A DNA stretch of 64,000 nt from a virus. Below the pieces are notes generated by a model that saw only the letters and a program-made list of their open reading frames with translations, was not told the DNA's origin and made no database searches. Position 1 is the stretch's first letter, and each line of letters begins with the position of its first letter. This document shows positions 23,793 through 59,618 of this stretch, one piece after another. The position numbers and the translations under genes are program-made. The stretch is taken from IMG/VR virus record IMGVR_UViG_3300031669_005140; one strand, given 5' to 3'.

Positions 23793-24140
23793 ATGGAAAA
23801 ACAATTTGCTACATATTCAATTTCATTAGAACTTAAAGAATTGGGTTTTGATGAAAAGTGTGATGCTGTTTATAATCCACGATTTTTTATTGATGGGTGT
23901 TGGGAAACAAAAAATTCATTAATTACTGAAATGAATATTAATTCAGATATTGTATGTTCAGCACCACTTTGGCAGCAAGCACAGGATTGGTTTTGGAAAA
24001 ATCATAACATACTAATTTCACCATATATTTCACAAGATCAACCCAATACTATTTTGTGGCAAGTAGGTTATGATATTTACCCAAAAAAAGAGGATGCATT
24101 TTTAAAAGCAATTGAAATTGTTAAAGAAAAATTGAAATGA
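23793..24140 (+). CDS. phage hypothetical protein (homolog of 61542..61943)
   Basis: Shared pattern: LELKELGF...SAPLWQQ..WF vs AKLAKEKG...SAPTQS..KWL. Confidence 0.75.
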   Translation: MEKQFATYSISLELKELGFDEKCDAVYNPRFFIDGCWETKNSLITEMNINSDIVCSAPLWQQAQDWFWKNHNILISPYISQDQPNTILWQVGYDIYPKKEDAFLKAIEIVKEKLK

Positions 24141-34573: not shown

Positions 34574-36517
34574 ATGAAAACTGGAGGAATGACAATGGTA
34601 GAAATGACAAAAGAAACGATTATGAATAAACTTAATGAGTTAGAGGTGGTAAAAATTAAGTTAAAGGAGGATTTTATTGGAATTGATGATGCAATTGATC
34701 AGTTTATTGAAAGCATTAAGGTATGGCATGTAGCACCAGAACTTCAGCTCAGGCCATTAATTGTTAATTTATGGGGAATGACAGGTGTAGGTAAAACAGA
34801 ATTGGTTAGAAAATTTGTAAAGTTGATTAATTTTCAGGAAAATTATGTTGAGGTAGAAATGAATACGCTAAAAAAAGGTATTTTGCCATCTTATTCTGAT
34901 ACTAGACTAGGTGCTGTTGATGGAATACAATTTCAGCTGGAATCTAATTTAAATGGGGATGGCTATGGAATTTTATTATTAGATGAGATACAAAAATTTA
35001 GAACAATAGATGGGTATGGAAATGAAATACCTAGTAATAATTTAAATGGTTATTCTGATATATGGACTTTATTGGGTGATGGTAAATTCACTCCCAATCT
35101 GGCGATTAAAGAAACAATTAATAGCTATCTACATAGTATTAAGAAAAAATTTGATCTGAAGAAAAGAGATAATAGTCCGATTGTTGGTGCTGATTTTTAT
35201 TATGACTATGTTACTGCTAAAAGAATTAAATATGCATTTGGATTAAAATCTAGTATAGATGAAATCATGACACTAGATTCAGAAAAAATTCTTACAGATT
35301 TAATGGATGCGCAAAAAAATCCAAAAACATATGAAAATAAAACATATTCTAAGTTGCTAATCATAATATCTGGAAATCTTGATGAAGCATTTGAAATGTC
35401 AAAAGAAACTGATGATATTGATGTTGATGCGGATATTCTCTATGAGCATTCTAGGAAAATAACATTAATTAATATAAAGAGAGCATTGCGCTCTAGGTTT
35501 AGGCCAGAACAAATTGCCAGATTTGGTAATAATCATATAATATATCCATCATTAAGTAGAGATAGCTATAATAAAATAATAAGGTCTAAGTGTGATACAA
35601 TTGTTAGCAATATTAAAGAAATTACTAATATTAGCATTACATTAGATGATGAAATATATGATATTATTTATCGAAACGGGGTATTTCCTAGTCAAGGTGT
35701 TAGGCCAGTTTTAAGCACAATTTCATCAACCATTGAAACTTCAATGCCATTTTTTATATATAATTGCATGCTCTATAATGTAAACAATATACATATTTCA
35801 TATAAAGATGGTCAACTATGTTCCAATATTTCTGGAAATAAGGTAACATATAAAATAGCAACAGTAATTGATAATATAAAAAATTCAAAAAATATTGACA
35901 TTGAATCATTGGTTGCGATTCACGAGGTAGGGCATACTATTGCATATATTAGTTTAATGAAATTAGTTCCAAAGCAATTGGTTTGTACTACAGCATCATT
36001 GATAACAAATGGATTTATTATGACACACGAAACTTTTGACTCAAAGGAGATGCTAAAAAACAAAATAATTATTGCATTAAGTGGACAGGTCGCAGAAGAA
36101 GTAATATTTGGTGAAAACATGAAAACTACTGGTTCGGCATCGGATATTTCAATTGCCACAAGTTATGCATCCAGCTATGTTAGAAAATATGGAATGGATG
36201 GATTTGTGGGTGACATTATTTGTGGAGCAAACGCAAACAATTTATCTTATGGTATTGTTGACTATGAAAACTCAAATGATTCTATTAATGTAATACTTAA
36301 TGAGTGTAAAATTGAAGCCACAAATATACTCAACAAAAATTTATCGTTAATGAAAAAATTGACAATAAAATTACTTGATAAAAAGGTAATGAAGGATATA
36401 GAAATTGCTGAAATCGTAAAAGAATATTATCCTGACCTAAATACTGGGAAGTTTTCACATACGATTAGTGAAAACTACAATAAAATGCTTAAGGATAAAT
36501 TTCTATCAATTAGTTAG
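34574..36517 (+). CDS. soluble AAA+ ATPase fused to a peptidase M41 (FtsH-type) domain
   Basis: Walker A GMTGVGKT, Walker B LLLDEIQK, HEVGH zinc motif, ALSGQVAEEVIFG..TTGSASDI; no N-terminal TM. Confidence 0.85.
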   Translation: MKTGGMTMVEMTKETIMNKLNELEVVKIKLKEDFIGIDDAIDQFIESIKVWHVAPELQLRPLIVNLWGMTGVGKTELVRKFVKLINFQENYVEVEMNTLKKGILPSYSDTRLGAVDGIQFQLESNLNGDGYGILLLDEIQKFRTIDGYGNEIPSNNLNGYSDIWTLLGDGKFTPNLAIKETINSYLHSIKKKFDLKKRDNSPIVGADFYYDYVTAKRIKYAFGLKSSIDEIMTLDSEKILTDLMDAQKNPKTYENKTYSKLLIIISGNLDEAFEMSKETDDIDVDADILYEHSRKITLINIKRALRSRFRPEQIARFGNNHIIYPSLSRDSYNKIIRSKCDTIVSNIKEITNISITLDDEIYDIIYRNGVFPSQGVRPVLSTISSTIETSMPFFIYNCMLYNVNNIHISYKDGQLCSNISGNKVTYKIATVIDNIKNSKNIDIESLVAIHEVGHTIAYISLMKLVPKQLVCTTASLITNGFIMTHETFDSKEMLKNKIIIALSGQVAEEVIFGENMKTTGSASDISIATSYASSYVRKYGMDGFVGDIICGANANNLSYGIVDYENSNDSINVILNECKIEATNILNKNLSLMKKLTIKLLDKKVMKDIEIAEIVKEYYPDLNTGKFSHTISENYNKMLKDKFLSIS

Positions 36518-36647
36518 TGTTGGAGATGATACTACACATTAATATTATGATATTATTCTATTTTAATATTTTGTTACAATATTATTCTATACGATATGTA
36601 ACAAATTTAAACTATTTTCGTATAGACAATAAACACATAAATTAGTT

Positions 36648-37343
36648 ATGAAAGTATACACGATTAAGTTTTATTTCTTTGGTAGTAAAGAAGTGGTTCC
36701 CATTGACTATTGGGATAAGGTATTAAGTTTTTTGCATGGGGAGATTCTGGGTAAAAATAATGAGTATCACGACAGTATTAGCCAATACTCCATTAGTCCT
36801 TTATTTAATAGTAGGACGGTTGAAAACGGTTTATTATTTGATAGGGGAGCAATTTGGTTGGTTAGGACACCCAGCATTAAAGTATTTAAGGATTTTTATC
36901 TTAGGGGAAAAAATGCAATTACAAAAGAGTTGGGGTATGGGTTGGTATTGAAGTCTGTTGATTTTAGTGTTAAAGAGTTTAGTAATATTACTGAGCTTAG
37001 TGTTGGCACGTCTCCAATATATCTGGGTCAAAATAAGAATTCTAGCAATCCAGATCATATAACCTATAAGCATGGTAATGATATATGTTCTACCTTACTT
37101 AAGCAAACACTATTAACCAAAGCAAGTATGTTAGGTTATGAATTAAATCCTGATAGTATTGATATTGAATTCGACTTAGCACTACCAATAAAAACGAAGA
37201 TGGTAAAGATTAGTAATGTTGCTAATATTGCCACGCAAGGTAGCGTTAAAATTGTGGGTAATTCAGATGCTATTGGTTTATGCTATGGGTTGGGACTTGG
37301 TGTTTCAACAGGTTGTGGTTTTGGTTTTATTTATAATGTTTAA
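36648..37343 (+). CDS. cas6: CRISPR-associated endoribonuclease Cas6
   Basis: C-terminal glycine-rich loop YGLGLGVSTGCGFG; first gene of the cas operon; promoter 36597. Confidence 0.9.
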   Translation: MKVYTIKFYFFGSKEVVPIDYWDKVLSFLHGEILGKNNEYHDSISQYSISPLFNSRTVENGLLFDRGAIWLVRTPSIKVFKDFYLRGKNAITKELGYGLVLKSVDFSVKEFSNITELSVGTSPIYLGQNKNSSNPDHITYKHGNDICSTLLKQTLLTKASMLGYELNPDSIDIEFDLALPIKTKMVKISNVANIATQGSVKIVGNSDAIGLCYGLGLGVSTGCGFGFIYNV

Positions 37344-37352
37344 CTGATTGAT

Positions 37353-39125
37353 ATGGACAGTACGTTTATTAAAATAGGTGAAGTAGTTAGAAAAGAAAGT
37401 TGGTCAAGATGTAAGCATCATCCAATGCTAAGATCGGTAAGTATTCAGAAGAAAAAAAATGATAAAAATGGTAGTGCTAAATATATACAAGATGATAGTA
37501 TTGCCATTCAAGAAATTAATATTGATTTAGATAAGAATATAATTGAATTTGGAGATAGTGATACTGTTTATAGTGAGGTTGAGGAAATTGTATTTAAGTT
37601 GGGAACAACTTCAAATAATGGTTTAATTCATTTAATTGGTAACTATCTTGTCAGTCTTTCTGAGGGAAAAATTAAAAAGGGATTATCGTTATCGCAGGAA
37701 GTTAGTAATCAGTTCTCATTTTCTACTTTCAATAAAAAATATGTAAAGATATATTCCAAAGTTTTAACGCCAACATCGTTTATATATAGGTATCGAAAAC
37801 TGCTAGATGATAATCTTGACCTGGTTATTGAGCAAATAGAAAAGTATGATAAGGACGATAAGATAGCAAAAATTCTATTTGTTATAACCATAACCTATAA
37901 AGGTGAAACCAGTCCTGCTTATGAGCATGCTGAATGTCTTGATGAAATAGATGAGATGTTTTTGCAATCCAACTATGTTGAAGGTAGGGGTTATATCTTT
38001 ATAAATGCATTTTATTCAATGTTTAACTATGGTAAGTACACCACGAATGGGTATAGCATGATGTATGATGATTCAATACCATACTATGATAAGGATGCAT
38101 TTCTTAACCTATACTATGCACGTAAAATTTATTCATGGGAGAGTTTAAATATTGATAATAACTATTCTGTATCAATATTTCCGAACTATAACAATCTAAC
38201 AATGAAAGATATTGAAGACCTTACATTTAAAGATGTGGATATTTTTAACTTTGATTTGGTTTGTAATAGAATTAAAACTTTTATTAACAGTAAAGTTGAG
38301 AGAGATTCTATTGAAAAAAGGTTAATTCCGTTATTGTTAAGATTTGATGTTTACTACAGGTATGAAAGTAAGGCAGGTAATCAGAATATGCTACGGCTTA
38401 GTGGTATAAGGTATATGCAACTACTAAGCATTAGGGATAGGGTAAATAATAAATATTATCCTAAATACTATGATAAGAATAGTAATAGCGAGAAAAAATA
38501 TTCACTTTACAAAGCATTAACCGAATTATACCAAGATTATAACGGTAAATCTGATAAGTATATGACAACTATTATACATACACTTCAGAACATTTATCAG
38601 GAAAAGTATGAAGTGCCTGAGCAAGCATTGTATTGCTTAATTAGTAAAATTGAGTATCTTGCAAGAAATAATAATATTAATGGTAGTGATTTTAAGAATG
38701 ACTGGAATAAACTTTTTAATATATATAAATTTTTAAAAACTATGGAATTGGAAAACTTTGTTTCTGAGTTAACTCGGCATTCATCCTATCGGTTAGGCAT
38801 TGAATTGTCTAAATTTGAATCGGGATGGAAAGATGGTAGAGAAAATCTAAGCAATACTATTAAGAAATTTGCTGGAAATATTAGTAAAACAGTTAATGGT
38901 ATTGATGATATTAGAGAATACTATCAAGACATTATGGAGCGTATGATACGCAATCAAATTGAATATGGCAATCATAATAAATTGCTGGAGTTGCTACATA
39001 CTATTACTGACAACGAATTTGATAAAAGCAAATTTGCTATGGGTTATTTCACTGAAAAATGTGAATACAAGCAATCAAAAGCAGTTGATTCTGCAACTAA
39101 TGAAAACAGTAACAATTTAAACTAA
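37353..39125 (+). CDS. cas8b: type I-B large subunit Cas8b (divergent)
   Basis: 590 aa between cas6 and cas7; helical C-terminus ending FAMGYF; assigned mainly by position. Confidence 0.7.
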   Translation: MDSTFIKIGEVVRKESWSRCKHHPMLRSVSIQKKKNDKNGSAKYIQDDSIAIQEINIDLDKNIIEFGDSDTVYSEVEEIVFKLGTTSNNGLIHLIGNYLVSLSEGKIKKGLSLSQEVSNQFSFSTFNKKYVKIYSKVLTPTSFIYRYRKLLDDNLDLVIEQIEKYDKDDKIAKILFVITITYKGETSPAYEHAECLDEIDEMFLQSNYVEGRGYIFINAFYSMFNYGKYTTNGYSMMYDDSIPYYDKDAFLNLYYARKIYSWESLNIDNNYSVSIFPNYNNLTMKDIEDLTFKDVDIFNFDLVCNRIKTFINSKVERDSIEKRLIPLLLRFDVYYRYESKAGNQNMLRLSGIRYMQLLSIRDRVNNKYYPKYYDKNSNSEKKYSLYKALTELYQDYNGKSDKYMTTIIHTLQNIYQEKYEVPEQALYCLISKIEYLARNNNINGSDFKNDWNKLFNIYKFLKTMELENFVSELTRHSSYRLGIELSKFESGWKDGRENLSNTIKKFAGNISKTVNGIDDIREYYQDIMERMIRNQIEYGNHNKLLELLHTITDNEFDKSKFAMGYFTEKCEYKQSKAVDSATNENSNNLN

Positions 39126-39133
39126 AAATAGCT

Positions 39134-40147
39134 ATGAAAAACAAGAGTGTTTATTTTATTTATGATGCAGTTAATTGCACACCAAATGGCGATCCAGATA
39201 CTGGTGAGCAAAGGTATAATGAAAACAGCAAAAAGGCTGTGGTAAGTGATTTACGTATTAAGCGTTTTGGCAGGGACAAGTTAAACGATATTGGTGAAAA
39301 CGTTTACTACTTTTATGATTGGGATAGGATTTCGTCCAACAAAAAAAGTGCTAGTTCAAAAAAGAGCGATTCGGATGATACTGATTCAAAAACGAAGGAT
39401 AAAAACACTGGTTCTGGTGCAGCAATTAGATTTAACCTATTTTGCAAAGAAAATGGTATTAAGGATAATGACAGTAAGAAAATTTTACTTCAGCATTTTG
39501 TGGATGTTAGGGTTTTTGGTGGTATTTTAACTGCTAAAAATAAGGCACAAGTTACAGGTGCATTACAATTTGATGCAGAAACTGATAGCGTTAATGAAGT
39601 GGTAATAGGTAAAAATTTTATTAATCGTGGAATTACCACTGTTTTTCCTAGCGGTGGTGAAAAAGGTCAGGGTGGCATGGGTAGAGATTCATACTTACGG
39701 TATGGTTTATTTTGTGTTAAGGGTAGGGTTAGTGCTACAACAGCAAAACACAATACCATGACCGATAATGATTTGAAGCTAGTTTTATCTGCAATATGGG
39801 ATGGAATGAAAACAATTAATACTCGTAGTAAGTATGGGCATCAACCAATTGCTTGTATTGTTGTTGAGCATCCAACACAAGAAACAAAAAATGGTTATTT
39901 GGGTAAAACATTTTCTAAATCATTTACTCCCTTTGAAATTAAAACTGATAAGAAAATGTCTGAACTCTATTCCAGAGCAGACTATGAGTTTGATTTTTCT
40001 CCACTTATCAGTAAGTTTGGTGATGCTGATGTAGATAGTGTAACCATTTACTGTGATGACAATAACTTCATTCAGAAGTATTTTGCAAACCTACCCAAGA
40101 ATTGTGAGGTATTGAATCCGTTTGATACGTTAGTTACACTGATTTAA
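39134..40147 (+). CDS. cas7: type I-B Cas7 (Csh2-like)
   Basis: NCTPNGDPDTG, VSDLRIKRFGRD, FVDVRVFGG, YGLF motifs. Confidence 0.92.
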   Translation: MKNKSVYFIYDAVNCTPNGDPDTGEQRYNENSKKAVVSDLRIKRFGRDKLNDIGENVYYFYDWDRISSNKKSASSKKSDSDDTDSKTKDKNTGSGAAIRFNLFCKENGIKDNDSKKILLQHFVDVRVFGGILTAKNKAQVTGALQFDAETDSVNEVVIGKNFINRGITTVFPSGGEKGQGGMGRDSYLRYGLFCVKGRVSATTAKHNTMTDNDLKLVLSAIWDGMKTINTRSKYGHQPIACIVVEHPTQETKNGYLGKTFSKSFTPFEIKTDKKMSELYSRADYEFDFSPLISKFGDADVDSVTIYCDDNNFIQKYFANLPKNCEVLNPFDTLVTLI

Positions 40148-40156
40148 CCAATTAAT

Positions 40157-40870
40157 ATGGAAAAGGTAGTTGCGTTTAACATAAAAAGTGCTTTGGGGTC
40201 ATTTTTACGACCTCAAAGCAATAACAATCCAAGCACTTTTCATATTATACCTAAATCAGCAGTTGTTGGTATTATAGGTGCAGTAATTGGATTGGAAAGA
40301 GATGTTATGAGAGATAATAATATGTATAAATTTTTCACAGAAAAGTTGAAATATTCTGTTATTCCTCGCTCCAACTTTCAAATAAAGTATTGGTCAGAAT
40401 ATAGTTATATTCATGGAAATGTATTTCAGGGTGGTGACATTCCAATACATACGCCAAGAAAATCTGAAAAGTTGGTAAATATATCCTATGATATTTATAT
40501 CAAGTATTCGGATGAGGATGCTGATGTTAAATCATTTTTACAAAATTTTACTAGCAACATAAAGGAAAATAGTTTTGTTTTTCCACCATATATGGGAATG
40601 GCTAATTTTCCTGCCGATATTACCTATATTGGAGAGTATGTTCCTGAAATACGTAATGGTAAGTTTACAACAAATGGTATTTGCACTACGCTAGATATTG
40701 ATGATATGGATAAATTTAGAGATATTGGCATTGATGATATACCAACGCAAAGTATTTCCTATCTTGCTCATCATATCTATAAAACCATATATTTTCATAA
40801 AAATTGTGGTAGCCTTCAAGCCGAAGGCAATTACTATGCAGTTAATGAAGAAGCACTTGAATTTATTTAG
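40157..40870 (+). CDS. cas5: type I-B Cas5
   Basis: GSFLRPQSN..PSTFHIIPKSAVVGIIGAVIG and PYMGMANF. Confidence 0.9.
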   Translation: MEKVVAFNIKSALGSFLRPQSNNNPSTFHIIPKSAVVGIIGAVIGLERDVMRDNNMYKFFTEKLKYSVIPRSNFQIKYWSEYSYIHGNVFQGGDIPIHTPRKSEKLVNISYDIYIKYSDEDADVKSFLQNFTSNIKENSFVFPPYMGMANFPADITYIGEYVPEIRNGKFTTNGICTTLDIDDMDKFRDIGIDDIPTQSISYLAHHIYKTIYFHKNCGSLQAEGNYYAVNEEALEFI

Positions 40871-40977
40871 GATGTTAAAAACAATGCAATTCAATCGTTT
40901 TTTTCTAAATATTTTAGATTTTTTTAATCGTATTTACAATATAATTATTTGTATGTCAATGAGTTTATTGTAGGTAG

Positions 40978-42133
40978 GGTGTTTACTATACTAATACTTA
41001 AGGTAATTACAACGAACTGTTCTGAATTTGGTCTTAACTGATGGGTGTTTACTATACTAATACTTAAGGTAATTACAACAAATACGTTACGAAAGGCAAG
41101 GCTGTTTCTGGTGTTTACTATACTAATACTTAAGGTAATTACAACACCTTGTTTATATATTCAGGCATCAATACTGGTGTTTACTATACTAATACTTAAG
41201 GTAATTACAACAGAGTAAGGTAAATGAGTGGATTAACGATAGGTGTTTACTATACTAATACTTAAGGTAATTACAACCTTCAACCGTATTTGGTGCATTA
41301 ACTGGTGGTGTTTACTATACTAATACTTAAGGTAATTACAACTCTTTTAATTTATCAAATTCAATTAATGCTGGTGTTTACTATACTAATACTTAAGGTA
41401 ATTACAACACTGATTTAGAAAATCCAAAATATAATTATGGTGTTTACTATACTAATACTTAAGGTAATTACAACAGAGTAAGGTAAATGAGTGGATTAAC
41501 GATAGGTGTTTACTATACTAATACTTAAGGTAATTACAACACAATGGGTGAAGTATGTGAGTTGCTCAAGGGTGTTTACTATACTAATACTTAAGGTAAT
41601 TACAACACGTTGTGCGTAATTGTGCTTTTGATTTTGGATGTTTACTATACTAATACTTAAGGTAATTACAACGTTCACCGAATAGTTGGGTATGTGCTTA
41701 TGATGTTTACTATACTAATACTTAAGGTAATTACAACGTTGCAAATTAATAGCGGTGATTTATCACGATGTTTACTATACTAATACTTAAGGTAATTACA
41801 ACCAATTGTTTATAATTGAGATTAATCCAGAAGATGTTTACTATACTAATACTTAAGGTAATTACAACTTTTCAGCTAAAAGAAAAAGGGAGCTCGATGA
41901 TGTTTACTATACTAATACTTAAGGTAATTACAACAAGTAAATACCAATACCACCTACATAGAGGGATGTTTACTATACTAATACTTAAGGTAATTACAAC
42001 CCAGTGCCCTCAAAGGGAGTTCTAAATATCTGATGTTTACTATACTAATACTTAAGGTAATTACAACTTATGTAGCTGCATCAAGTATTGATGATGGGGT
42101 GTTTACTATACTAATACTTAAGGTAATTACAAC
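40978..42133 (+). CRISPR. CRISPR array: 18 repeats of 36 bp, 17 spacers of 29-31 bp
   Basis: Repeat G(G/A)TGTTTACTATACTAATACTTAAGGTAATTACAAC; spacers 13x30, 3x29, 1x31; spacer 4 = spacer 8. Confidence 0.99.
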
Positions 42134-42196
42134 TAAGCACCCCCAAATAATCGGGTATTTACAATGTTAAAATTTAAAGTAGTTAACAATTTTACT

Positions 42197-42227
42197 TGCA
42201 ATGTTAAGGAATAATGCCTAGATTTGT
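42197..42227 (+). promoter_or_regulatory. Bacteroidota housekeeping-type promoter (TTG-N20-TAGATTTG)
   Basis: TTGCAATGTTAAGGAATAATGCCTAGATTTG; near-identical block at ~45833-45857; both precede YD paralogs. Confidence 0.7.
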
Positions 42228-42328
42228 AATCAATTAATTAGCAGCCACTTTTTTATAAATCAAAACATGATGACCCAGAAGCTAGTTAATAACTAAATAA
42301 CAATTAATAACTAATTTAAAATTTTTTT

Positions 42329-42787
42329 ATGAAAATAACAACTGATTATCTCAAATCAATTGATGCATCATCAAGTATGATTGCTCGATTTAGTTATACA
42401 CCCGAACTACACGATATCGATATGTTATCGGAAGTTACAACTGGTGATAAATCATTATTTAACGATATTAATTGGTTGATTAATAAGTTAAAAGGTAAAT
42501 TACCTGTTAGTAAGTTAACTTTTAAGAATTCAAGTGGTTATACTATGGAGTATACCTATGATGAAAGAGGAAATAAGTTAACTTTTAAGAATTCAACTGG
42601 TTATGCTGAAGAATATACCTATGATGAAAGAGGAAATAAGTTAACATTTAAGAATTCAAATGGTTATTCATCTGAATATACTTATGATGAAAGAGGAAAT
42701 AAGTTAACTTATAAGAACTCAGATGGTAATATTATTGCTGATTATACACAAATGAAGTATGATTTAACTGATTTTGAGATAAGATAA
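42329..42787 (+). CDS. YD-like repeat protein, paralog 3 (3 repeats)
   Basis: Same N-domain and C-tail; lies between the array and cas3. Confidence 0.88.
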   Translation: MKITTDYLKSIDASSSMIARFSYTPELHDIDMLSEVTTGDKSLFNDINWLINKLKGKLPVSKLTFKNSSGYTMEYTYDERGNKLTFKNSTGYAEEYTYDERGNKLTFKNSNGYSSEYTYDERGNKLTYKNSDGNIIADYTQMKYDLTDFEIR

Positions 42788-42937
42788 TAATAAAATATAA
42801 TTAAGATAAAGTCATATACACCCATAATGTATATGACTTTATCATTTATAGTAATCCAAGCAATATAATAAAAATTGCTACTATTGCGTAACATATATTA
42901 ATAGTCTGCGTATAATTAAGAAAAAATAGTAAAAAAT

Positions 42938-45304
42938 ATGGCAACCTATAATCCTAAATCCCATCCAACTAAGTTACTTATTGACCATAAGAAAGGCATT
43001 CTAAACCTTTCTGATGTTACGGATTTGCTATTACTGGCAGTTTCATTTCACGATGTTGGAAAGATGAATGATAACTTTCAAAAGTATATTGTTGGTGATT
43101 CATATTCTGGATATAAAAACCATGCATATATTTCGGCGTACTATCTCATAAATGGGTTTGTTAACAATAAAGAAGCAATTAAGAAAAGATTTTCTTTTAT
43201 TACTGAATATAATTTTGAAATGATACTGCTATTGTTAGGAAATGTTGTTATCGGCCATCACGGTTATCTTCGAAATATTGATGAAATATTTAGTAATGAT
43301 AAGGAATGGGATGACATGATTAACTATCTTAAGTCAATAAATATGACTGAGCATGTCAATACTTTCTTTAAGGATAATATTGATCTTTTGGGGTGTGAGT
43401 TAACATTTATTGATGATATTGAAAAATGTGATTACTATCGCACATTCGGTAGAATTTTGGATAAACCTAGTTGGAATGTATCTGCGTTAGATTATTACTT
43501 TGATACTATTATGACGTTTGCTGAACTAGTAACTGGTGATAGGAGAGATGCATCTGGAAATGTTGCATCATATAGGGAAAAAACAAAAAAAAGATATGCC
43601 TATTCATTAGAAAATAATTTGGAGTGGATGTTTAATAGCTTAACAAGTAAAAGTGACTTAAATACTGTTCGTAATAAGATTAGAAAAATGGCAGTTAGTG
43701 AGTTATCAACACAACTTAACAGCAGTAAAGACAAGAGAGTATTTACCTTAACAGCACCAACTGGTAGTGGAAAAACATTAATGATGTTACAACTTGCTAC
43801 TGAAATTTTAAAAAGGAAGGGTTATGATCACGATATAATTTATTCGCTTCCATATCTTTCAATTATTGATCAAACTACGAAGATATTGAATAAAGATTTA
43901 AGAATAGAAACTCTAAACTATACCTCTGCTTCAGATACAAGTATGAAACTTAAAAGTATGATGGAAAAGGAAAGCGGGTCGAAGGATTTGATTGAGTATG
44001 CCTTTTCTGAAAATTGCTTTGATCATTCGTTTATTGTTACAACGTTTAATCAGCTATTTGAAACATTACTTAGTAACAGCACAAGTAAGTTAATAAGGCT
44101 GAAAAATTTCAAAAAGCGCATATTCTTAATTGATGAGTTTCAAGCAGCAAGTCCAATGCAGTATTATACGCTTATGAACCTTCTGAATGAGTTTTGTGTG
44201 AGATATGATAGCTATGCCATTATTAGTACTGCAACAATGCCAAATTTTGGTATAGATTGGAATGCAATGAAAAACAAAAACATTAAAAATCTGTTTAAAA
44301 AGCAGTTTTACAATACAGAATTACTACCAGATAAGGTATTTGAGAATAGCGTTTTTAATCGATATAGAATTAACTTTAGTGGTGAAGTAGATCAAAATTC
44401 TTTGTATAAAATGGTAAATGACGCAGATAAAAGTGCGTTATTGATTGTAAATACAATACGAACTTCACAAATAATGTATTCAAAGTTTGCGGAAGTCAAC
44501 AATGCGAAAGTCAACAATTTTGATAAGTTATATTTATTAAATGCTCATATTAGTCCAGCAGATAGACTAAAATTGATTAGTAATATTTTTGACGATTTAA
44601 AAAATAATATAAAAATTCTTGTAATAAGTACACAGGTAATTGAAGCAGGAGTTGATATTAGTTTTCCTATAGTATATCGGGATGCTGCTCCACCTTCAAG
44701 CGTTGTTCAAGCATGTGGTCGTGGTAATCGCAATGGCGAATTTGGCATAATTGATATTTACCTATTTTTATTTAAAGATGGTGGGAATGCAAATTATGAT
44801 TGCAACATGGTTTATCATGGCACAATGACAAATAACTTTAGAAATGACATAAAAAATAAGATATCATCCCTAACTGAAATTGAATTTCATAAAAGATGCC
44901 AAAAATATTTTGCAGGATTATCCATAAATGCTGAGCATGGCAAGGTGAGTGAAAACCAAAATATTGTTGATGACATTCTTGACGGTAAATTTTATGATAT
45001 TGGTAATTATAGATTCATTCAAGGTGATCCAGATACACACACAATATATGTGGGTAAAGATGATGATACTTGGAACGCATATATTAACTCATTGCAACAA
45101 ATAAAATCAGCAAATAATTATCAGGAACGTGATATTGCAAATATCGAATTTAAGCGTATAAGAGGAGTGGTTCTTCAAAATTGCATAAACATACGCACCA
45201 AGGTTTTTGAATCGATTAGTGTTGAAGAAAATGATGTTTTTGGTGTGTATAGGTTGCTTGATGTTGATAAATATGATTCAAAAATTGGACTGATTGAATT
45301 TTAA
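42938..45304 (+). CDS. cas3: Cas3 (HD nuclease plus SF2 helicase)
   Basis: LIDH, FHDVGK, HHG; TAPTGSGKT, DEFQ, STAT, TQVIEAGVDISF, QACGRGNRNG; own promoter 42887. Confidence 0.95.
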   Translation: MATYNPKSHPTKLLIDHKKGILNLSDVTDLLLLAVSFHDVGKMNDNFQKYIVGDSYSGYKNHAYISAYYLINGFVNNKEAIKKRFSFITEYNFEMILLLLGNVVIGHHGYLRNIDEIFSNDKEWDDMINYLKSINMTEHVNTFFKDNIDLLGCELTFIDDIEKCDYYRTFGRILDKPSWNVSALDYYFDTIMTFAELVTGDRRDASGNVASYREKTKKRYAYSLENNLEWMFNSLTSKSDLNTVRNKIRKMAVSELSTQLNSSKDKRVFTLTAPTGSGKTLMMLQLATEILKRKGYDHDIIYSLPYLSIIDQTTKILNKDLRIETLNYTSASDTSMKLKSMMEKESGSKDLIEYAFSENCFDHSFIVTTFNQLFETLLSNSTSKLIRLKNFKKRIFLIDEFQAASPMQYYTLMNLLNEFCVRYDSYAIISTATMPNFGIDWNAMKNKNIKNLFKKQFYNTELLPDKVFENSVFNRYRINFSGEVDQNSLYKMVNDADKSALLIVNTIRTSQIMYSKFAEVNNAKVNNFDKLYLLNAHISPADRLKLISNIFDDLKNNIKILVISTQVIEAGVDISFPIVYRDAAPPSSVVQACGRGNRNGEFGIIDIYLFLFKDGGNANYDCNMVYHGTMTNNFRNDIKNKISSLTEIEFHKRCQKYFAGLSINAEHGKVSENQNIVDDILDGKFYDIGNYRFIQGDPDTHTIYVGKDDDTWNAYINSLQQIKSANNYQERDIANIEFKRIRGVVLQNCINIRTKVFESISVEENDVFGVYRLLDVDKYDSKIGLIEF

Positions 45305-45406: not shown

Positions 45407-45829
45407 ATGAATAATATAGGTATTACATCAAATCAGCAATTAAATATGAATGGTATTGCTAACGCTACCATAAAAAAGGTACGGCAATATTGCGAAGACT
45501 GCTATGGAGTTGGAGAAGTTTCAAGTTGTTGTAATAGCGATTGCGAAAATGGTAGGTGTTTGCTCTGTGGTAGGTATTGTAAGGAAGTGCCATGTGATAA
45601 TTGCTGGGGACAGGGATATATTGACTATGAGGTAGGTGATGAGGTAGAAATATTTGTTTGTGCATATTCTGATGAATATTTATGGAACTCACTACATAAA
45701 CCCAAGCATATTGAAGATAGTAAAACATTTACTGGTAAAATAAAATCATTTATTGATGATAAAAATGCGGTGGTTCGAATAGGAAGAAAAGAAGTAAATA
45801 TAGAGATTAAAGATTTAAGTATAAGGTAG
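45407..45829 (+). CDS. Cys-rich Zn-finger protein (DnaJ-like CxxCxGxG)
   Basis: CEDCYGVG and CDNCWGQG. Confidence 0.7.
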   Translation: MNNIGITSNQQLNMNGIANATIKKVRQYCEDCYGVGEVSSCCNSDCENGRCLLCGRYCKEVPCDNCWGQGYIDYEVGDEVEIFVCAYSDEYLWNSLHKPKHIEDSKTFTGKIKSFIDDKNAVVRIGRKEVNIEIKDLSIR

Positions 45830-45909
45830 CATTGTTAAGGAATAATGCCTAGATTTGTATTGATTAATTACGAGTTAATAACTAAATAACAATTAATAAT
45901 AAATATTTT

Positions 45910-46242
45910 ATGAAAATTACGACAGATTATCTCAAATCAATTAACGCACCAGTAAGAATGATAAAATCATTTGAAAGTATTTCTGAACTACATGGTATTG
46001 ATTTTAACAAATCAACTGAAATCACTGTTGGTGATAGTACGCTATATAACGACATACATTGGCTTATTATTGAATCAAAAGGTATGTTGCTTATAAATAA
46101 TTTAACTTATAAAGATTCTTCAGGTTTTTCAGAAAAAATAACTTATGATGAAAAAGGAAATGCTTTAGCTAAAACTAGAATACGTGCTAATGATAAAGAA
46201 TATACATATGATTTAACTCTTTTTGAAGTAAACCAGTTTTAA
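45910..46242 (+). CDS. YD-like repeat protein, paralog 4 (1 repeat, diverged)
   Basis: MKITTDYLKSI...YDLTLFEV. Confidence 0.82.
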   Translation: MKITTDYLKSINAPVRMIKSFESISELHGIDFNKSTEITVGDSTLYNDIHWLIIESKGMLLINNLTYKDSSGFSEKITYDEKGNALAKTRIRANDKEYTYDLTLFEVNQF

Positions 46243-55714: not shown

Positions 55715-56613
55715 TGGCCATAAATATCTCTTCTTCTTTGATGGCTCACCTCTTCTTCAAGGGGGAGCCTTTACCTGTTTGCCCTCGCAACCTAAAGCGT
55801 ATATGGATAGATAAGGAGCAGCTGTCTGCACCTACCTTACCCATGCTTTATGGCCAGTATGGGGAGACGCTATGCCTGGGTGCTACGGCCTACAGCACCG
55901 TAGACGATTTGCCTAGGAAGGCACTATCTCCCAATCAGGAAAAGGAGAACAGGTATCGGCAAATAAAAGGACTTCCGCTTATACAGGGGGATAAGAGCCT
56001 AACACACCGAAGGATAGATGAGCAGGCCATGAGGTTCAAGCAGCTGGAGAAGGATGGCGTATTTGAGGTATACGGAACGCAGGTTAAGCTTCGGATGGAT
56101 ATGGGGGACGGCTTTGTCCTAGGGGGAGTGCTGGATATGTTTCCTTTCACCTATAACGATACGGCTGACGGAGAAAGCTACTTCGGGGTAGGAGACCTAA
56201 AGTTTAGCGAGACGCTAGATCAGTCCTACGTGATGGTCAAATACCCTTGGGGCGACTTTGGGGCCATGGATAAAACCCAAGCCTTCGTATACCTAAAGCT
56301 GGTTGAGAACATAGACAACGAGCTAAATGAAAGCGTGGTTAGCGGATTACCCGCTAGGATGATGGATATGCTAGGCGCTACGGTATTCGTGTATACGGTA
56401 TTCGAGTGGGGAAGCAAGATGCGCTGGAGACCTTACGTGGTTAAGCGAACGGACTCGGACGGTAAGGAGGTTATGGAGACCATCAGGCGAACTAAGGGCA
56501 TTTTAAGCCATTACAGGGATCAAGATTGGCCAGCCATGCCAGACGTTAGGTTGTGCGAGAGATGCCCCCTAACGGACTGTAATGAGCGTTTAACCACGGT
56601 TGTTTGGGAATAG
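55714..56613 (+). CDS. PD-(D/E)XK nuclease (RecB/Cas4-like)
   Basis: GGVLD...GDLKFS...QAFVY and C-terminal CERCPLTDC cysteine cluster. Confidence 0.75.
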   Translation: MAINISSSLMAHLFFKGEPLPVCPRNLKRIWIDKEQLSAPTLPMLYGQYGETLCLGATAYSTVDDLPRKALSPNQEKENRYRQIKGLPLIQGDKSLTHRRIDEQAMRFKQLEKDGVFEVYGTQVKLRMDMGDGFVLGGVLDMFPFTYNDTADGESYFGVGDLKFSETLDQSYVMVKYPWGDFGAMDKTQAFVYLKLVENIDNELNESVVSGLPARMMDMLGATVFVYTVFEWGSKMRWRPYVVKRTDSDGKEVMETIRRTKGILSHYRDQDWPAMPDVRLCERCPLTDCNERLTTVVWE

Positions 56614-56642
56614 AGAACTGAACTGTTTTACAATAATGGATT

Positions 56643-56906
56643 ATGATTGAATATATTGATAGATATAGTAGTACAGATTTACCTGATGACATAGGTAGAT
56701 GGGCAAGAGCTGCCGTTTATAAAAACATTAGAATTGCTTGGATTAGTAGACTTGAAGTAAAAGGTAAATTTATCTTTAGTGTTTCTTGCCATTTTCCTAC
56801 TATGCAAAATGATACAGCAAATGAACATAAAGTATGCTTTAGTTTAGAAGAAGCAAAAGACTTTGTAAAAGAGCGTTGGGAATGGTTTTTAACGGCCGTT
56901 TCTTAA
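56643..56906 (+). CDS. hypothetical protein
   Basis: ORF track. Confidence 0.7.
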   Translation: MIEYIDRYSSTDLPDDIGRWARAAVYKNIRIAWISRLEVKGKFIFSVSCHFPTMQNDTANEHKVCFSLEEAKDFVKERWEWFLTAVS

Positions 56907-56949
56907 ATGGCTGATAATGGATATTATAAACAACTAAAACTTAAACATT

Positions 56950-57150
56950 ATGATAAAAGTAAAGTTTCCAAAAGAGCAAGTAGCCATATTTAATAGTATG
57001 GGCACAATTGTAAATACGGCAAGTGGTAACGTATACAGATACTTCCCATATTGGGTTAGAGAAACCGAAGAAGAAGGTGTATTCGAGTTGTTTCTTCTTG
57101 GAAAATTGCCTGATGAATTGGTAAACATCATCATAGCTATGAGAGAGTAG
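56950..57150 (+). CDS. hypothetical protein
   Basis: ORF track. Confidence 0.65.
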   Translation: MIKVKFPKEQVAIFNSMGTIVNTASGNVYRYFPYWVRETEEEGVFELFLLGKLPDELVNIIIAMRE

Positions 57151-57181
57151 CCTTGTTGCTTACGTTAATAACTTCCAAAAA

Positions 57182-57595
57182 GTGATAACCATGGAGAATA
57201 ACTTGATACGGCCACCGTATATGTTGCTAGATGAAGACGGATACCCTACGGATGAATGGCTTGCATTTCTTAGAAACTATGATCCAGAAACATGCATACC
57301 TGTTCAAGAATTGGTCGTAGATTACCTACCTAATGGATGGAATCATAGGGACTGGGGATATAAGTTACACCGAAGGTATCGAGAAAAAAGAAGGCTAGAG
57401 TTGCATACCGGAGGCTGGAGCGGAAACGAGGAGGTAATAAGGGCTATTTTAGATAATTTCTGGCTTACTGATTTTAAGTTACGGTACGTTATGTGGAAGA
57501 CTGGAGGACACTACTACTTCGAGCTAGCTTGGTTAGACGATGAGTTGTTTGTTCACAATATATTAGCGTTCATTTTAAATGCACAGCGCGATTAA
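57182..57595 (+). CDS. phage hypothetical protein
   Basis: DEDGYPT...LHTGGWSGNEEVIRAI...GGHYYFE. Confidence 0.75.
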   Translation: MITMENNLIRPPYMLLDEDGYPTDEWLAFLRNYDPETCIPVQELVVDYLPNGWNHRDWGYKLHRRYREKRRLELHTGGWSGNEEVIRAILDNFWLTDFKLRYVMWKTGGHYYFELAWLDDELFVHNILAFILNAQRD

Positions 57596-57631
57596 CGGAA
57601 CAAGAAATATACAACTTGAAAATGAATAACT

Positions 57632-58165
57632 ATGGGAAGACCGCTAAAGATAAGGCCATATAAGGCAGAGGACGTGCTCACGCTTGTCTTCAACTTGGAC
57701 AAGATTACTATGGAGCATCACATCACCCGAAGGGATTTACGCCTACTGTTGGCCATAAAGACCGTAGAGTCTCATGGGCTTAGGGCTTCGTCGATTACGT
57801 TGGCCTACCTAGGAACCTACACACGTCCCCAGATATACAAGATTATTCGGATCATGTCATATAGGGGATATGTATACAGAACCGACATGGGGCACAACAA
57901 CGTAAACTACTTTCTAACTGAGAAGGGTGAAGACTTGCTATCACTCTTTGCTACCGAATACAAGAATGAGCAAACAAGAATTAGAGGAGTTGTCCGGAAA
58001 ACCGGAAAGTTCGGAACGTCTGAGAAAAATAGTTCACTACAACGCCTATACAAGGGGCTACAAGGCAGGACTATTAAAACTCCTAAGCATGGAGGTGTGT
58101 CCATACGGGTTAAGACCAAACGAAGGAAGGGACGTAAGAAGGTGGTTGTGGATCAAGGGATATAA
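57632..58165 (+). CDS. winged-helix (MarR-like) DNA-binding protein
   Basis: TRPQIYKIIRIMSYRGYVYR...YFLTEKGEDLL. Confidence 0.7.
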   Translation: MGRPLKIRPYKAEDVLTLVFNLDKITMEHHITRRDLRLLLAIKTVESHGLRASSITLAYLGTYTRPQIYKIIRIMSYRGYVYRTDMGHNNVNYFLTEKGEDLLSLFATEYKNEQTRIRGVVRKTGKFGTSEKNSSLQRLYKGLQGRTIKTPKHGGVSIRVKTKRRKGRKKVVVDQGI

Positions 58166-58179
58166 AGACGGAGAGGAAT

Positions 58180-58551
58180 ATGGAACGAGAAGAAAAGATG
58201 CAGCGGATAGCGCATCACTTGACGATGATTGGGTTGCTGGCGGAGATGGAGATTAAGTCTATTGGAGACCGGCTGGTGTTTATTAAGGACGGAGAGCACT
58301 TCGTTGTAGGGAGATATGGGCTAGAGCCATCGGTTAGGATAAACCTACAGCAAAGGGTAAAGGACTTGGAGGGCTCTCTCTTTAGGGCCAACGCCTCACT
58401 CAGCTCTGCCCAGCGAAGGCTAAGGGGCATGGTGGAGTCCAGGATGCTAGGAAAGAAGGAAACCCATAAGCTGATGTCCATACTCGATAGCAGCGAGTCC
58501 GACAGGGAAAAGGTTATTGAGATGAAGCGATACCTAAAGGCCAATGTATGA
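58180..58551 (+). CDS. coiled-coil hypothetical protein
   Basis: ORF track; ATGA overlap with the methyltransferase. Confidence 0.7.
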   Translation: MEREEKMQRIAHHLTMIGLLAEMEIKSIGDRLVFIKDGEHFVVGRYGLEPSVRINLQQRVKDLEGSLFRANASLSSAQRRLRGMVESRMLGKKETHKLMSILDSSESDREKVIEMKRYLKANV

Positions 58552-59597: not shown

Positions 59598-59618
59598 TGA
59601 CTAAAAACAGTAAAGACA

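What the first reader, a model, noticed from the sequence alone, without database searches (positions are those of the whole stretch)
36648..45304. Type I-B Cascade/Cas3 paired with an array that has class 2 geometry (36-bp repeat, 30-bp spacers) and no cas1/2
SEEN: cas6-cas8b-cas7-cas5-array-(YD gene)-cas3, with no cas1/2/4 in the locus. The repeat is 36 nt and spacers are tightly 29-31 nt. KNOWN: type I-B arrays usually have ~30-nt repeats (some 36-37) with ~34-38-nt spacers, whereas 36/30 is typical of type II and VI-B arrays, which are common in Bacteroidota. The repeat's 3' end, GGTAATTACAAC, resembles Cas13b repeats as I recall them (..GGTAATCACAAC). It could also supply an 8-nt Cas6 handle (ATTACAAC vs the usual ATTGAAAC). 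Huge phages often carry interference-only CRISPR modules. INFERRED: the phage may use a repeat that the host's II-C Cas1-Cas2 can extend, while its own Cas6/Cascade processes and uses short 30-nt guides.
Basis: partly seen in the sequence, partly recalled or inferred. Interest (0 to 1): 0.78.

Follow-up and report, generated by a model that had tools for sequence, protein, structure and literature searches.

The report
Phage Cascade using Cas13b-style CRISPR array
A large phage carries a DNA-cutting type I CRISPR system with no spacer-acquisition genes, and its array has the dimensions and repeat end of Bacteroidota Cas9/Cas13b arrays, so it probably depends on a host enzyme to load new spacers, one of which targets a rival phage in the same samples.

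Summary
Window 36648-45304 encodes cas6, a Cas8-like large subunit, cas7 (Csh2-like), cas5 (Cas5h-like), an 18-repeat array, a small YD-repeat ORF, and an intact HD-helicase cas3. Repeats are 36 nt. Spacers are 29-31 nt.

No Cas1, Cas2 or Cas4 is detectable in any frame of the 64-kb window. A 229-kb relative lacks Cas1 and Cas2.

The module belongs to a metagenomic, phage-borne Cascade clade (Cas7 44-66% identical within it, 34% or less to cellular Cas7). Every array recovered for the clade has the 36/30 geometry. The nearest cellular I-B loci have 30/37 or 37/36 arrays ending in ATTGAAAC, and those checked carry their own cas1/2/4.

The last 12-14 nt of the repeat (AAGGTAATTACAAC) are identical in arrays next to Cas13b and next to phage Cas-lambda. 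Bacteroidota Cas9 (II-C) arrays have 30-nt spacers and repeats ending in CACAAC.

Spacer 2 matches (29/30) a tail-fibre-like gene of another phage present in the same samples.

Best reading: an interference-only phage Cascade-Cas3 whose array is filled in trans by a host II-C-type Cas1-Cas2. That step is inferred, not shown.

This is a new variant of a known kind, since phage CRISPR without adaptation genes and adaptation in trans are both documented.

The parts
36598..36622 (+). GTAAC-N16-CGTA promoter-like motif upstream of cas6
Evidence: Read directly. The same motif precedes cas3.
36648..37343 (+). cas6 (crRNA endoribonuclease), 231 aa
   Evidence: PF01881 E 8e-7 and TIGR01877 E 4e-10, the latter below its cut-off. 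51-72% identical orthologues hold the same position in L112 and L113.
37353..39125 (+). Cas8-like large subunit, 590 aa. The helical C-terminal third may also be made separately as Cas11 from the invariant Met464 (nt 38742).
   Evidence: No Pfam or NCBIfam hit. The AlphaFold model (pLDDT 76.4) matches type I-C Cas8c chains 8dfs_I and 8g9t_K (probability 1.0, TM 0.40-0.45). M464 is invariant in 7 homologues. The internal start is an inference.
39134..40147 (+). cas7 backbone subunit, 337 aa
   Evidence: PF05107 E 5e-39. Best NCBIfam model is I-B Csh2 (112 bits, below its 171.55 cut-off), ahead of I-C Csd2 (81 bits).
40157..40870 (+). cas5, 237 aa
   Evidence: TIGR02592 Cas5h (I-B), E 1e-16, below cut-off; Cas5 N-terminal domain TIGR02593 above cut-off.
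40871..40977 (+). A+T-rich leader with poly-T tracts
   Evidence: Sequence. Leaders of relatives also carry poly-T/poly-A tracts. No GTAAC-N16-CGTA motif here.
40978..42133 (+). CRISPR array: 18 repeats of 36 nt and 17 spacers of 29-31 nt. Repeats 1-10 and 18 start GG; repeats 11-17 start GA.
   Evidence: The variant repeats form one contiguous block.
41080..41109 (+). Spacer 2, matching another phage
   Evidence: 29/30 match to G409:24031-24060 (IMG/VR contig, 38.9 kb) inside a 1432-aa Laminin_G_3 protein. The target contig is present in the same three samples.
41146..41175 (+). Spacer 3, with a 30/30 match on an unidentified 314-nt contig of the same sample
   Evidence: tables 7 and 8.
42134..42189 (+). 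Truncated 20-nt spacer plus degenerate terminal repeat (25/36), marking the trailer end
   Evidence: Read. Its likeness to the repeat is visible in the alignment.
42329..42787 (+). Small YD/RHS-repeat ORF (152 aa) inserted between array and cas3; not part of the conserved module
   Evidence: PF05593 E 1e-4. Absent at this position in L001, L006 and L184. Its upstream sequence recurs after cas3 (families D6, D7, D9).
42888..42912 (+). GTAAC-N16-CGTA promoter-like motif upstream of cas3
   Evidence: Read.
42938..45304 (+). cas3, fused HD nuclease and SF2 helicase, 788 aa, motifs intact
   Evidence: TIGR01587 130 bits and TIGR01596 53 bits, both above cut-off. HD, GSGKT, DEFQ and QACGRGNR motifs are visible in the translation.

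Best explanation
This is an interference-only CRISPR module derived from type I-B and carried by a large phage. SHOWN: cas6-cas8-cas7-cas5, an array and an intact cas3 are present. No adaptation genes are detectable in the window or in its relatives. The module belongs to a conserved phage clade whose arrays all have 36-nt repeats and about 30-nt spacers. The repeat's 3' end is shared with Cas13b and Cas-lambda arrays. 30-nt spacers are the rule in Bacteroidota Cas9 arrays. One spacer matches a tail-fibre-like gene of a co-occurring phage. INFERRED: the array is transcribed from the cas5-side leader. Cas6 cuts 8 nt before the repeat's end, giving a crRNA with an AUUACAAC 5' handle, a 30-nt guide and a 28-nt 3' handle. 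The guide is one 6-nt Cas7 step shorter than in cellular I-B relatives. Cascade finds rival-phage DNA and recruits Cas3 to degrade it. New spacers are inserted at the leader end in trans by a Cas1-Cas2 integrase with a 30-nt ruler that recognises this repeat class. The most likely donor is the host's type II-C module, which is already known to serve Cas13b arrays that lack cas1/2. II-C-loaded spacers have their PAM end facing the leader. A leader-driven transcript therefore places that flank 5' of the protospacer, which is where Cascade reads a PAM.
For: Gene identities.

Adaptation genes: none found in six frames of the window and 14 related loci, none in 82 loci (489 kb) of the repeat family, and none in the 229-kb relative or four other phage contigs.

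Clade: Cas7 homologues at 44-66% identity, then a drop to 34% or less. The same gene order sits in phage-like contexts.

Geometry: 65 spacers in six arrays measure 28-32 nt, and 49 of them are 30 nt. Arrays reached through Cas7 alone (window, L001, L006, L181, L184) are all 36/30.

Cellular I-B and I-C relatives are 30/37, 37/36 or 32/34 and end in ATTGAAA(C/T). Where checked, they have their own Cas1, Cas2 and Cas4.

The same 12-14-nt repeat end lies next to Cas13b (NF038190, E 1e-241, 1e-206 and 1e-111) and next to Cas-lambda (PDB 9izp, E 3e-145). A Bacteroidota genome's Cas13b repeat differs by 1 nt in the last 14.

Bacteroidota Cas9 arrays: spacers of 29-31 nt in all eight genomes where an array was found, three with 36-nt repeats; seven end in CACAAC as read and the eighth in CACAGC on the other strand.

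Published precedents: VI-B acquires spacers through II-C Cas1 in trans, and the two repeat types share the leader-distal end (PMC8092290). Nearly all phage CRISPR systems lack Cas1, Cas2 and Cas4 (PMC7162821).

Growth of the array: the repeat variants form one contiguous block (repeats 11-17). I calculate about 4e-4 for that contiguity under random placement. There is also a degenerate trailer repeat.

Target: spacer 2 matches 29/30, the only mismatch is at position 12, a position Cascade does not pair, and the match is to the coding strand, so the crRNA cannot pair with the mRNA.
Against: No acquisition event and no host were observed. The Bacteroidota link rests on repeat likeness and on earlier, untested notes.

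Only 64 kb of the 152.8-kb contig could be read, and the 229-kb relative is estimated 82% complete, so a distant cas1 cannot be excluded.

My Cas1 profile was built from type I sequences and could miss a very divergent integrase.

The window repeat starts GGTG or GATG rather than GTTG and lacks the Cas13b hairpin (fold -4 kcal/mol, z about 0). What an integrase would recognise in it is therefore unclear.

For II-C repeats of 44-47 nt, the published work itself notes that the ruler problem is unsolved.

The two protospacer flanks (TTTAT and TTTTG) define no PAM.

Identical spacers 4 and 8 point to some internal recombination.
Confidence: 0.55

Rival explanations
1. The array is filled in trans, but by a donor other than host II-C. 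Candidates are an RT-Cas1/Cas2 module of the kind found with some VI-B loci, a type III adaptation module, or a Cas1-Cas2 carried by a co-infecting element.
For: Some Bacteroidota VI-B loci have recruited RT-Cas1/Cas2 and carry 35-nt GUUG...CAAC repeats (PMC11662929). The one Cas13b-bearing genome I examined (G131) has no detectable Cas1 at all. Nothing here identifies the donor.
Against: 30-nt spacers were found in every Cas9 array examined, and II-C is the only module for which adaptation in trans into this repeat class has been shown experimentally. Cas9 was found in 12 of 61 sampled Bacteroidota, Cas13b in 1 of 151.
Confidence: 0.15
2. The array was captured once, by recombination, from a Cas13b- or Cas-lambda-type array and is now essentially static. 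The Cascade adapted to it and no spacers are being added.
For: No adaptation genes anywhere. Duplicated spacer 4/8. Degenerate repeats in the L001 and L184 arrays. In L182, neither an array nor cas3 follows cas5.
Against: Each clade member has a different spacer set with the same tight length. Window repeats are near-identical and the variants form one contiguous block, as expected from stepwise growth. Spacers 2 and 3 match sequences present in the same samples (29/30 and 30/30), which suggests recent acquisition. Two near-identical phage arrays of the same repeat family (L101 and L108) differ by a spacer at the leader end.
Confidence: 0.12
3. The phage encodes its own adaptation genes in the unread 89 kb of the contig, or uses an unrecognised integrase.
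For: Only 42% of the contig was visible. Some phages, such as Vibrio phage ICP1, carry complete systems (PMC11656645).
Against: The 229-kb relative (82% complete) has the same module and no Cas1 or Cas2. In cellular I-B loci, cas4-cas1-cas2 follow cas3 directly. Here phage genes follow cas3.
Confidence: 0.1
4. This is an ordinary divergent I-B lineage with its own preferred geometry, and the likeness to class 2 arrays is coincidence or convergence.
For: The 8-nt handle ATTACAAC differs from the canonical ATTGAAAC at only two positions. 36-37-nt repeats do occur in cellular I-B.
Against: 12-14 consecutive identical nucleotides shared with Cas13b and Cas-lambda repeats, together with identical repeat and spacer lengths, is far beyond chance (4^-12 per pair). 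No cellular counterpart of this lineage was found among 80 Cas7-bearing loci.
Confidence: 0.05

Closest known systems
Cellular type I-B CRISPR-Cas (Cas6-Cas8b-Cas7/Csh2-Cas5-Cas3-Cas4-Cas1-Cas2), e.g. the Bacteroidota loci L039 and L048 and the Clostridium locus L020
   Same: The effector genes have the same families, and a fused HD-helicase Cas3 is present. cas8-cas7-cas5-cas3 run in the same order. Cas7 and Cas5 score best against the I-B models. The handle is of the ATTnnAAC type.
   Different: Cas7 is 34% identical or less. There is no cas4, cas1 or cas2. The array sits between cas5 and cas3. Spacers are 30 nt, not 36-37 nt. The repeat end is GGTAATTACAAC, not AAGGATTGAAAC. Cas6 matches the general Cas6 family, not the Cas6b family found in L039 and L048. 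Every context is phage-like.
Type VI-B (Cas13b) arrays of Bacteroidota, which lack cas1/2 and acquire spacers through II-C Cas1 in trans (PMC8092290; preprint 10.1101/092577)
   Same: 36-nt repeat, 30-nt spacers, leader-to-array transcription with the ...ACAAC end leader-distal, identical last 12-14 nt, and no adjacent adaptation genes.
   Different: The effector is a DNA-targeting Cascade-Cas3, not an RNA-targeting Cas13b. The window repeat lacks the GUUG start and the U-rich hairpin. The crRNA is expected to carry the repeat end as a 5' handle rather than a full 3' repeat.
Interference-only CRISPR systems of large phages (PMC7162821), including Cas-lambda phages
   Same: Carried by a phage, no Cas1, Cas2 or Cas4, a compact array, and spacers against other phages. 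Cas-lambda arrays (L104, L130) share the 36/30 geometry and the same repeat end.
   Different: The type I example in that paper is a I-C variant without Cas6 and with a helicase in place of Cas3. This module keeps Cas6 and a complete Cas3. I found no description of a class 1 effector sharing a repeat class with class 2 effectors, but the 2022 survey of virus-encoded systems (doi 10.1016/j.cell.2022.10.020) could not be read.
Plasmid type IV-A3 systems that acquire spacers through a host I-E adaptation module (Benz et al. 2024, as cited in PMC11656645)
   Same: A class 1 system on a mobile element, without adaptation genes, whose repeats resemble the host's and which is used in conflicts between mobile elements.
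   Different: That cross-talk stays within class 1. Here the inferred donor is a class 2 (II-C) module, the element is a phage, and the effector has a nuclease.

Membership tests
Type I-B CRISPR-Cas | Cas7 of the Csh2 group and Cas5 of the Cas5h group | tested here: inconclusive
   The best NCBIfam models are I-B Csh2 (112 bits against a 171.55 cut-off) and Cas5h (61 against 97). These are top hits but fall below the curated cut-offs. Pfam Cas7 is above its cut-off.
Type I-B CRISPR-Cas | Cas8b large subunit | tested here: inconclusive
   No sequence-family hit. The predicted fold matches the Cas8c large subunit of I-C Cascade (probability 1.0, TM 0.40-0.45). This shows a Cas8-type large subunit but not Cas8b specifically.
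Type I-B CRISPR-Cas | A separate Cas6 for crRNA processing (absent in I-C) | tested here: met
   PF01881 and TIGR01877 hits at 36648-37343, conserved across the clade.
Type I-B CRISPR-Cas | Cas3 with fused HD nuclease and helicase | tested here: met
   cas3_core and cas3_HD are above cut-off and the motifs are intact.
Type I-B CRISPR-Cas | Own adaptation module (cas4-cas1-cas2) | tested here: not met
   Absent from the window and from all relatives. Present in the cellular comparators L039, L048 and L020.
Type I-B CRISPR-Cas | Array with about 30- or 37-nt repeats ending in ATTGAAAC and 34-38-nt spacers | tested here: not met
   36-nt repeat ending in ATTACAAC with 29-31-nt spacers, against the cellular arrays.
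Type VI-B (Cas13b) array | 36-nt repeat and 30-nt spacers | tested here: met
   compared.
Type VI-B (Cas13b) array | Complementary GUUG...CAAC ends and a U-rich hairpin | tested here: not met
   The window repeat starts GGUG or GAUG. Its fold is -4 kcal/mol with z -0.09, against -9.4 kcal/mol and z -3.0 for a Cas13b repeat. The relative L001 does have GTTG...CAAC ends.
Type VI-B (Cas13b) array | Adjacent cas13b | tested here: not met
   No Cas13b in five related phage records. The window's large ORFs were scanned and none resembles Cas13b.
Mobile-element CRISPR that acquires spacers in trans | No adaptation genes, but varying spacer content among relatives | tested here: met
   for absence. 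for distinct spacer sets. for the block structure of repeat variants.
Mobile-element CRISPR that acquires spacers in trans | Repeat, leader and PAM resemble those of a co-resident adaptation-competent system | tested here: inconclusive
   Geometry and the ...ACAAC end match Bacteroidota II-C arrays in general. The actual host and its arrays are unknown, and only two protospacer flanks are available.
Mobile-element CRISPR that acquires spacers in trans | Demonstrated insertion by the donor integrase | not testable with these tools
   Needs an acquisition assay.

The most novel reading that the evidence does not exclude
Bacteroidota and their phages share one 'adaptation commons'. A single II-C-type Cas1-Cas2 with a 30-nt ruler would service arrays read by at least four unrelated effectors: Cas9, Cas13b, phage Cas-lambda and TnpB-like nucleases, and a phage Cascade-Cas3. 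This phage Cascade lineage would have reshaped its crRNA handle and guide length to exploit host adaptation during infection. That would be class 1 / class 2 cross-talk in which the II-C spacer polarity happens to place the PAM on the side that Cascade and Cas12-type enzymes read.
Probability: 0.35. Interest if true: 0.82.

Novelty: new variant of a known kind. Interest (0 to 1): 0.62.

Why it matters
If the reading holds, spacer-acquisition machinery acts as a shared resource across CRISPR classes and across the host-virus boundary. A DNA-shredding class 1 effector on a phage would be armed by a class 2 host integrase. That would explain how phage CRISPR systems without adaptation genes stay current.

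It also offers a natural Cascade with a 30-nt guide for structural comparison. And it suggests a simple rule for recognising which orphan arrays depend on which integrase: spacer length plus the leader-distal repeat end.

The match of spacer 2 to a tail-fibre-like gene of a co-occurring phage gives a concrete phage-against-phage pair to test.

Tried and rejected
Protospacer searches
- The whole window array, and the L181 and L001 arrays, against 50,697 deposited phage genomes gave nothing credible. The only hits were an Enterococcus phage at E 0.3 and Lak phages at E 0.09, at 74-81% identity over 43-83 nt.
- Spacers 1, 4 and 9 against IMG/VR, as patterns with every sixth base free, gave no match.
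- All collected spacers against all held loci matched only themselves.
- Only the laying of sample contigs revealed targets.

Other searches that gave nothing
- The exact repeat and close Cas7 relatives in IMG/VR gave nothing for this phage, and the locus has no near match among deposited phages.
- The repeat-end pattern was not found in 401 sampled Bacteroidota genomes. This is a sample and an exact pattern, so it is not evidence of absence.
- No whole genome is held for the window, so the rest of the contig could not be scanned.
- Rfam found nothing in the window.

Checks that resolved a doubt
- The Logan contig L005 seemed to lack the array, but this is an assembly collapse from repeat 1 to the last spacer.

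Ideas rejected
- That the array serves a Cas13b encoded nearby: none was found.
- That host Cas13b uses the phage array: the hairpin is missing.
- That the YD ORF is part of the module: it is absent in relatives.

Left undone
- A Cas7 phylogeny to place the clade. At 30% identity or less to all cellular sequences it would not be reliable.
- The 2022 Cell survey of virus-encoded CRISPR systems could not be read, so prior description there cannot be excluded.
Full report
**1. What is in the window**

The region 36648-45304 holds, all on the + strand:
- cas6 (36648-37343)
- a 590-aa gene with no family hit (37353-39125)
- cas7 (39134-40147)
- cas5 (40157-40870)
- a CRISPR array
- a 152-aa YD/RHS-repeat ORF (42329-42787)
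- cas3 (42938-45304)

Cas7 and Cas5 score best against the type I-B models Csh2 and Cas5h, but below NCBI's cut-offs. Cas3 passes the cut-offs for both the helicase core and the HD domain, and its HD, Walker A, DExQ and motif VI residues are intact.

I folded the unassigned 590-aa protein using an alignment of seven homologues (mean pLDDT 76). It matches the Cas8c large subunit of type I-C Cascade (8dfs_I, 8g9t_K; probability 1.0, TM 0.40-0.45). It is therefore a Cas8-type large subunit. Its last third is helical and begins near a methionine (M464) that is invariant in all seven homologues. This could be an internal start for a separate small subunit, as known for I-B, I-C and I-D. That is an inference.

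**2. The array**

The array runs from 40978 to 42133. It has 18 repeats of 36 nt (G[G/A]TGTTTACTATACTAATACTTAAGGTAATTACAAC) and 17 spacers: 13 of 30 nt, 3 of 29 nt and 1 of 31 nt.

After the last full repeat come a 20-nt spacer remnant and a degenerate repeat (42154-42189, 25/36 matches). The trailer is therefore on the cas3 side, and the A+T-rich leader (40871-40977) is on the cas5 side.

Repeats 1-10 and 18 begin GG, and repeats 11-17 begin GA. If the seven variants were placed at random, I calculate a probability of about 4e-4 that they would all be contiguous. A contiguous block is what stepwise growth at one end, copying the first repeat, would produce. Joining of two arrays would also produce it. 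Spacers 4 and 8 are identical.

A GTAAC-N16-CGTA motif precedes cas6 (36598-36622) and cas3 (42888-42912) but not the array.

**3. No adaptation genes**

None of the window's large ORFs is Cas1. I built HMMs from 66 Cas1, 12 Cas2 and 22 Cas4 sequences taken from cellular relatives and verified by Pfam. Run over all six frames of the window and 14 related phage loci, they gave nothing significant (best E-values 0.31, 0.019 and 1.1). They also gave nothing in 82 loci (489 kb) carrying this repeat family or this Cascade.

The window is 64 kb of a 152.8-kb contig, and no whole genome is held. A 229-kb relative with the same module, estimated 82% complete, has no Cas1 or Cas2. Four other phage contigs with the same repeat family have no Cas1.

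**4. It is a clade, not a one-off**

Cas7 has about 27 metagenomic homologues at 44-66% identity. The next hits drop to 34% or less. Contexts are phage-like: small same-strand ORFs, T5orf172, Phage_endo_I, anti-defence families such as Acb3 and Tad3, and IMG/VR membership. The order cas6-cas8-cas7-cas5-(array)-cas3 recurs, with no cas1/2/4 within 10 kb. The window itself carries an rIIA homologue.

Arrays reached through Cas7 homology alone are all 36-nt repeat with about 30-nt spacer: window, L001, L006, L181 and L184. Four of the five end in TAATTACAAC. L184 ends in TAGTTCTAAC. Adding L112, L131 and L169, 65 spacers measure 28-32 nt and 49 of them are exactly 30 nt.

L001 shows progressive repeat decay toward cas3, which confirms the polarity.

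**5. Cellular relatives differ**

Among 80 genome loci with the nearest cellular Cas7 (30% identity or less), array geometries were as follows:

| Group | Repeat (nt) | Spacer (nt) | Repeat end |
|---|---|---|---|
| Clostridia-type I-B | 30 | 37 | ATTGAAAC |
| Bacteroidota, Ignavibacteria, Balneolales I-B | 37 | 36 | AAGGATTGAAAC |
| I-C | 32 | 33-34 | ATTGAAAT |

The loci I checked (L039, L048, L020) carry Cas1 and Cas4, two of them also Cas2, next to cas3. None has the 36/30 geometry.

**6. The repeat class is shared with class 2 systems**

I searched IMG/VR and the metagenome collection for two copies of the 11-nt repeat end spaced as in the array. Besides coding tandem repeats, this returned genuine arrays, all 36/30. 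They lie next to:
- the phage Cascade (L112, L113, L131, L169)
- Cas13b (L158, L119, L122; NF038190 E 1e-241, 1e-206 and 1e-111)
- a 764-aa RuvC protein that is Cas-lambda (E 3e-145 to PDB 9izp) on 106-113-kb contigs, one of them an IMG/VR viral record (L104, L130)
- 377-414-aa TnpB-like proteins (L101, L125, L135, L118)

A Cas13b locus found independently in a Bacteroidota genome (1 of 151 sampled) has a 36-nt repeat that differs from the window's last 14 nt at one position. It has 29-30-nt spacers, and that genome has no Cas1. Published work describes Cas13b repeats as 36 nt with GUUG...CAAC ends, 30-nt protospacers and no cas1/2 (10.1101/092577).

The Cascade-associated repeats keep only the 3' 12-14 nt. 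They have lost the Cas13b hairpin (-4 kcal/mol with z about 0, against -9.4 kcal/mol with z -3).

**7. Where 30-nt spacers come from**

Twelve of 61 sampled Bacteroidota genomes have Cas9. In the eight where I found the adjoining array, spacers are 29-31 nt (median 30). Repeats are 36 nt in three genomes and 44-47 nt in five. Seven end in CACAAC as read and the eighth in CACAGC on the other strand.

In Flavobacterium columnare the VI-B array acquires spacers through the II-C Cas1 in trans. The two repeat types share the leader-distal end, and spacers enter with the PAM end facing the leader (PMC8092290).

The phage arrays have the same layout: leader, then a repeat ending in ...ACAAC, then the spacer. 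A transcript started at the leader then carries the PAM-proximal end of each spacer next to the ACAAC handle. That puts the PAM 5' of the protospacer, which is the side read by Cascade and by Cas12-type enzymes. This is my inference. It would explain why effectors that read a 5' flank can use this array class.

**8. What the spacers hit**

Deposited phages and IMG/VR pattern scans gave nothing.

Laying the contigs of the three samples that hold this phage showed two targets:
- Spacer 2 lies on a different contig in all three samples. In the best sample that contig has depth 116, against 81 for the phage.
- Spacer 3 has a 30/30 match on a 314-nt contig.

The flank of the spacer-2 target led to an IMG/VR contig of 38.9 kb and 45.6% G+C, with a tape-measure protein and a primase. 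The protospacer (24031-24060) matches 29/30. It lies on the coding strand of a 1432-aa Laminin_G_3 protein downstream of the tail genes, so it is tail-fibre-like. A crRNA of spacer sense cannot pair with that mRNA, so the target must be DNA.

The single mismatch is at spacer position 12, one of the every-sixth positions that Cascade does not pair. The chance expectation for this is 1 in 6, so it is only consistent, not proof. The 5' flanks are TTTAT and TTTTG. With two cases, no PAM can be called.

**9. Verdict**

Every comparative claim held and neither stated refutation was met. Loading by host II-C remains an inference (confidence about 0.55 for II-C, about 0.7 for any donor acting in trans).

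Phage CRISPR without adaptation genes (PMC7162821) and adaptation in trans (PMC8092290; type IV-A3 via I-E, cited in PMC11656645) are both known. The new elements are:
- a class 1 Cascade-Cas3 lineage tied to a class 2 array class
- a guide one Cas7 step shorter than in its I-B relatives
- one repeat end shared by Cascade, Cas13b and Cas-lambda arrays

I could not read the 2022 survey of virus-encoded systems, so prior description there is possible.

Noticed in passing
window 42198-42381 and 45829-45962: cas3 is bracketed by two directly repeated segments. Each holds a 31-nt block (97% identical) followed by the upstream region and first codons of a YD-repeat gene (74% over 86 nt). So YD-gene units sit on both sides of cas3, and the one at 42329-42787 splits the array from cas3. 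Relatives have no gene there.
   Followed up: partly
L104:6196-8490 (-) and L130:464-2758 (-): A 764-aa Cas-lambda homologue (E 3e-145 to PDB 9izp) on 106-113-kb contigs (L104 is an IMG/VR viral record). It sits directly upstream of a 36/30 array whose repeat ends in the same AAAGGTAATTACAAC. The IMG/VR record holding L104 has no Cas1.
   Followed up: partly
L101:13746-14044 versus L108:12759-12927: Two near-identical phage contigs carry a small array of the same repeat family next to a 377-aa TnpB-like gene. They share one spacer (1 mismatch). L108 has a different extra spacer at the leader end and lacks three others. This looks like polarised gain and loss in contigs with no detectable Cas1 (L101's record is 91% complete).
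   Followed up: partly
L001:5815-7008, L006:4335-5555, L007:6186-7406, L008:155-1375: An IS605-type TnpB gene (397-406 aa) lies immediately upstream of cas6 in several members of the phage Cascade clade. A 514-aa TnpB-like gene lies downstream of cas3 in the P0021 contig. Whether these are plain insertion sequences or guide-using nucleases was not examined.
   Followed up: no
L113:4714-5408 (+): A second, degenerate array of the same family (repeats ending in GTAATTATAAT, spacers of 28-30 nt) lies upstream of cas6 and is oriented away from it. This is in addition to the array after cas5.
   Followed up: no
L182:908-3138: In one clade member, cas7-cas5 are followed by unrelated genes (HSP20, an N6/N4 methylase, a Tad3 family protein). 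I found no array after cas5, and no cas3 is among the called genes. This may be a decaying module.
   Followed up: no
window 34574-36517: A 647-aa protein just upstream of cas6 combines an AAA+ (ClpB D2-like) domain with an FtsH-type M41 peptidase domain. It is conserved next to the module in the Logan contig L005.
   Followed up: no
window 56000-60000: G+C rises from about 30% to 42-48%. The region includes a C-5 cytosine DNA methylase (58548-59597). It may be a recently acquired segment.
   Followed up: no
L158 and L127 (Cas13b contigs): One spacer recurs several times across separate small arrays downstream of cas13b. The arrays carry two slightly different repeat variants.
   Followed up: no
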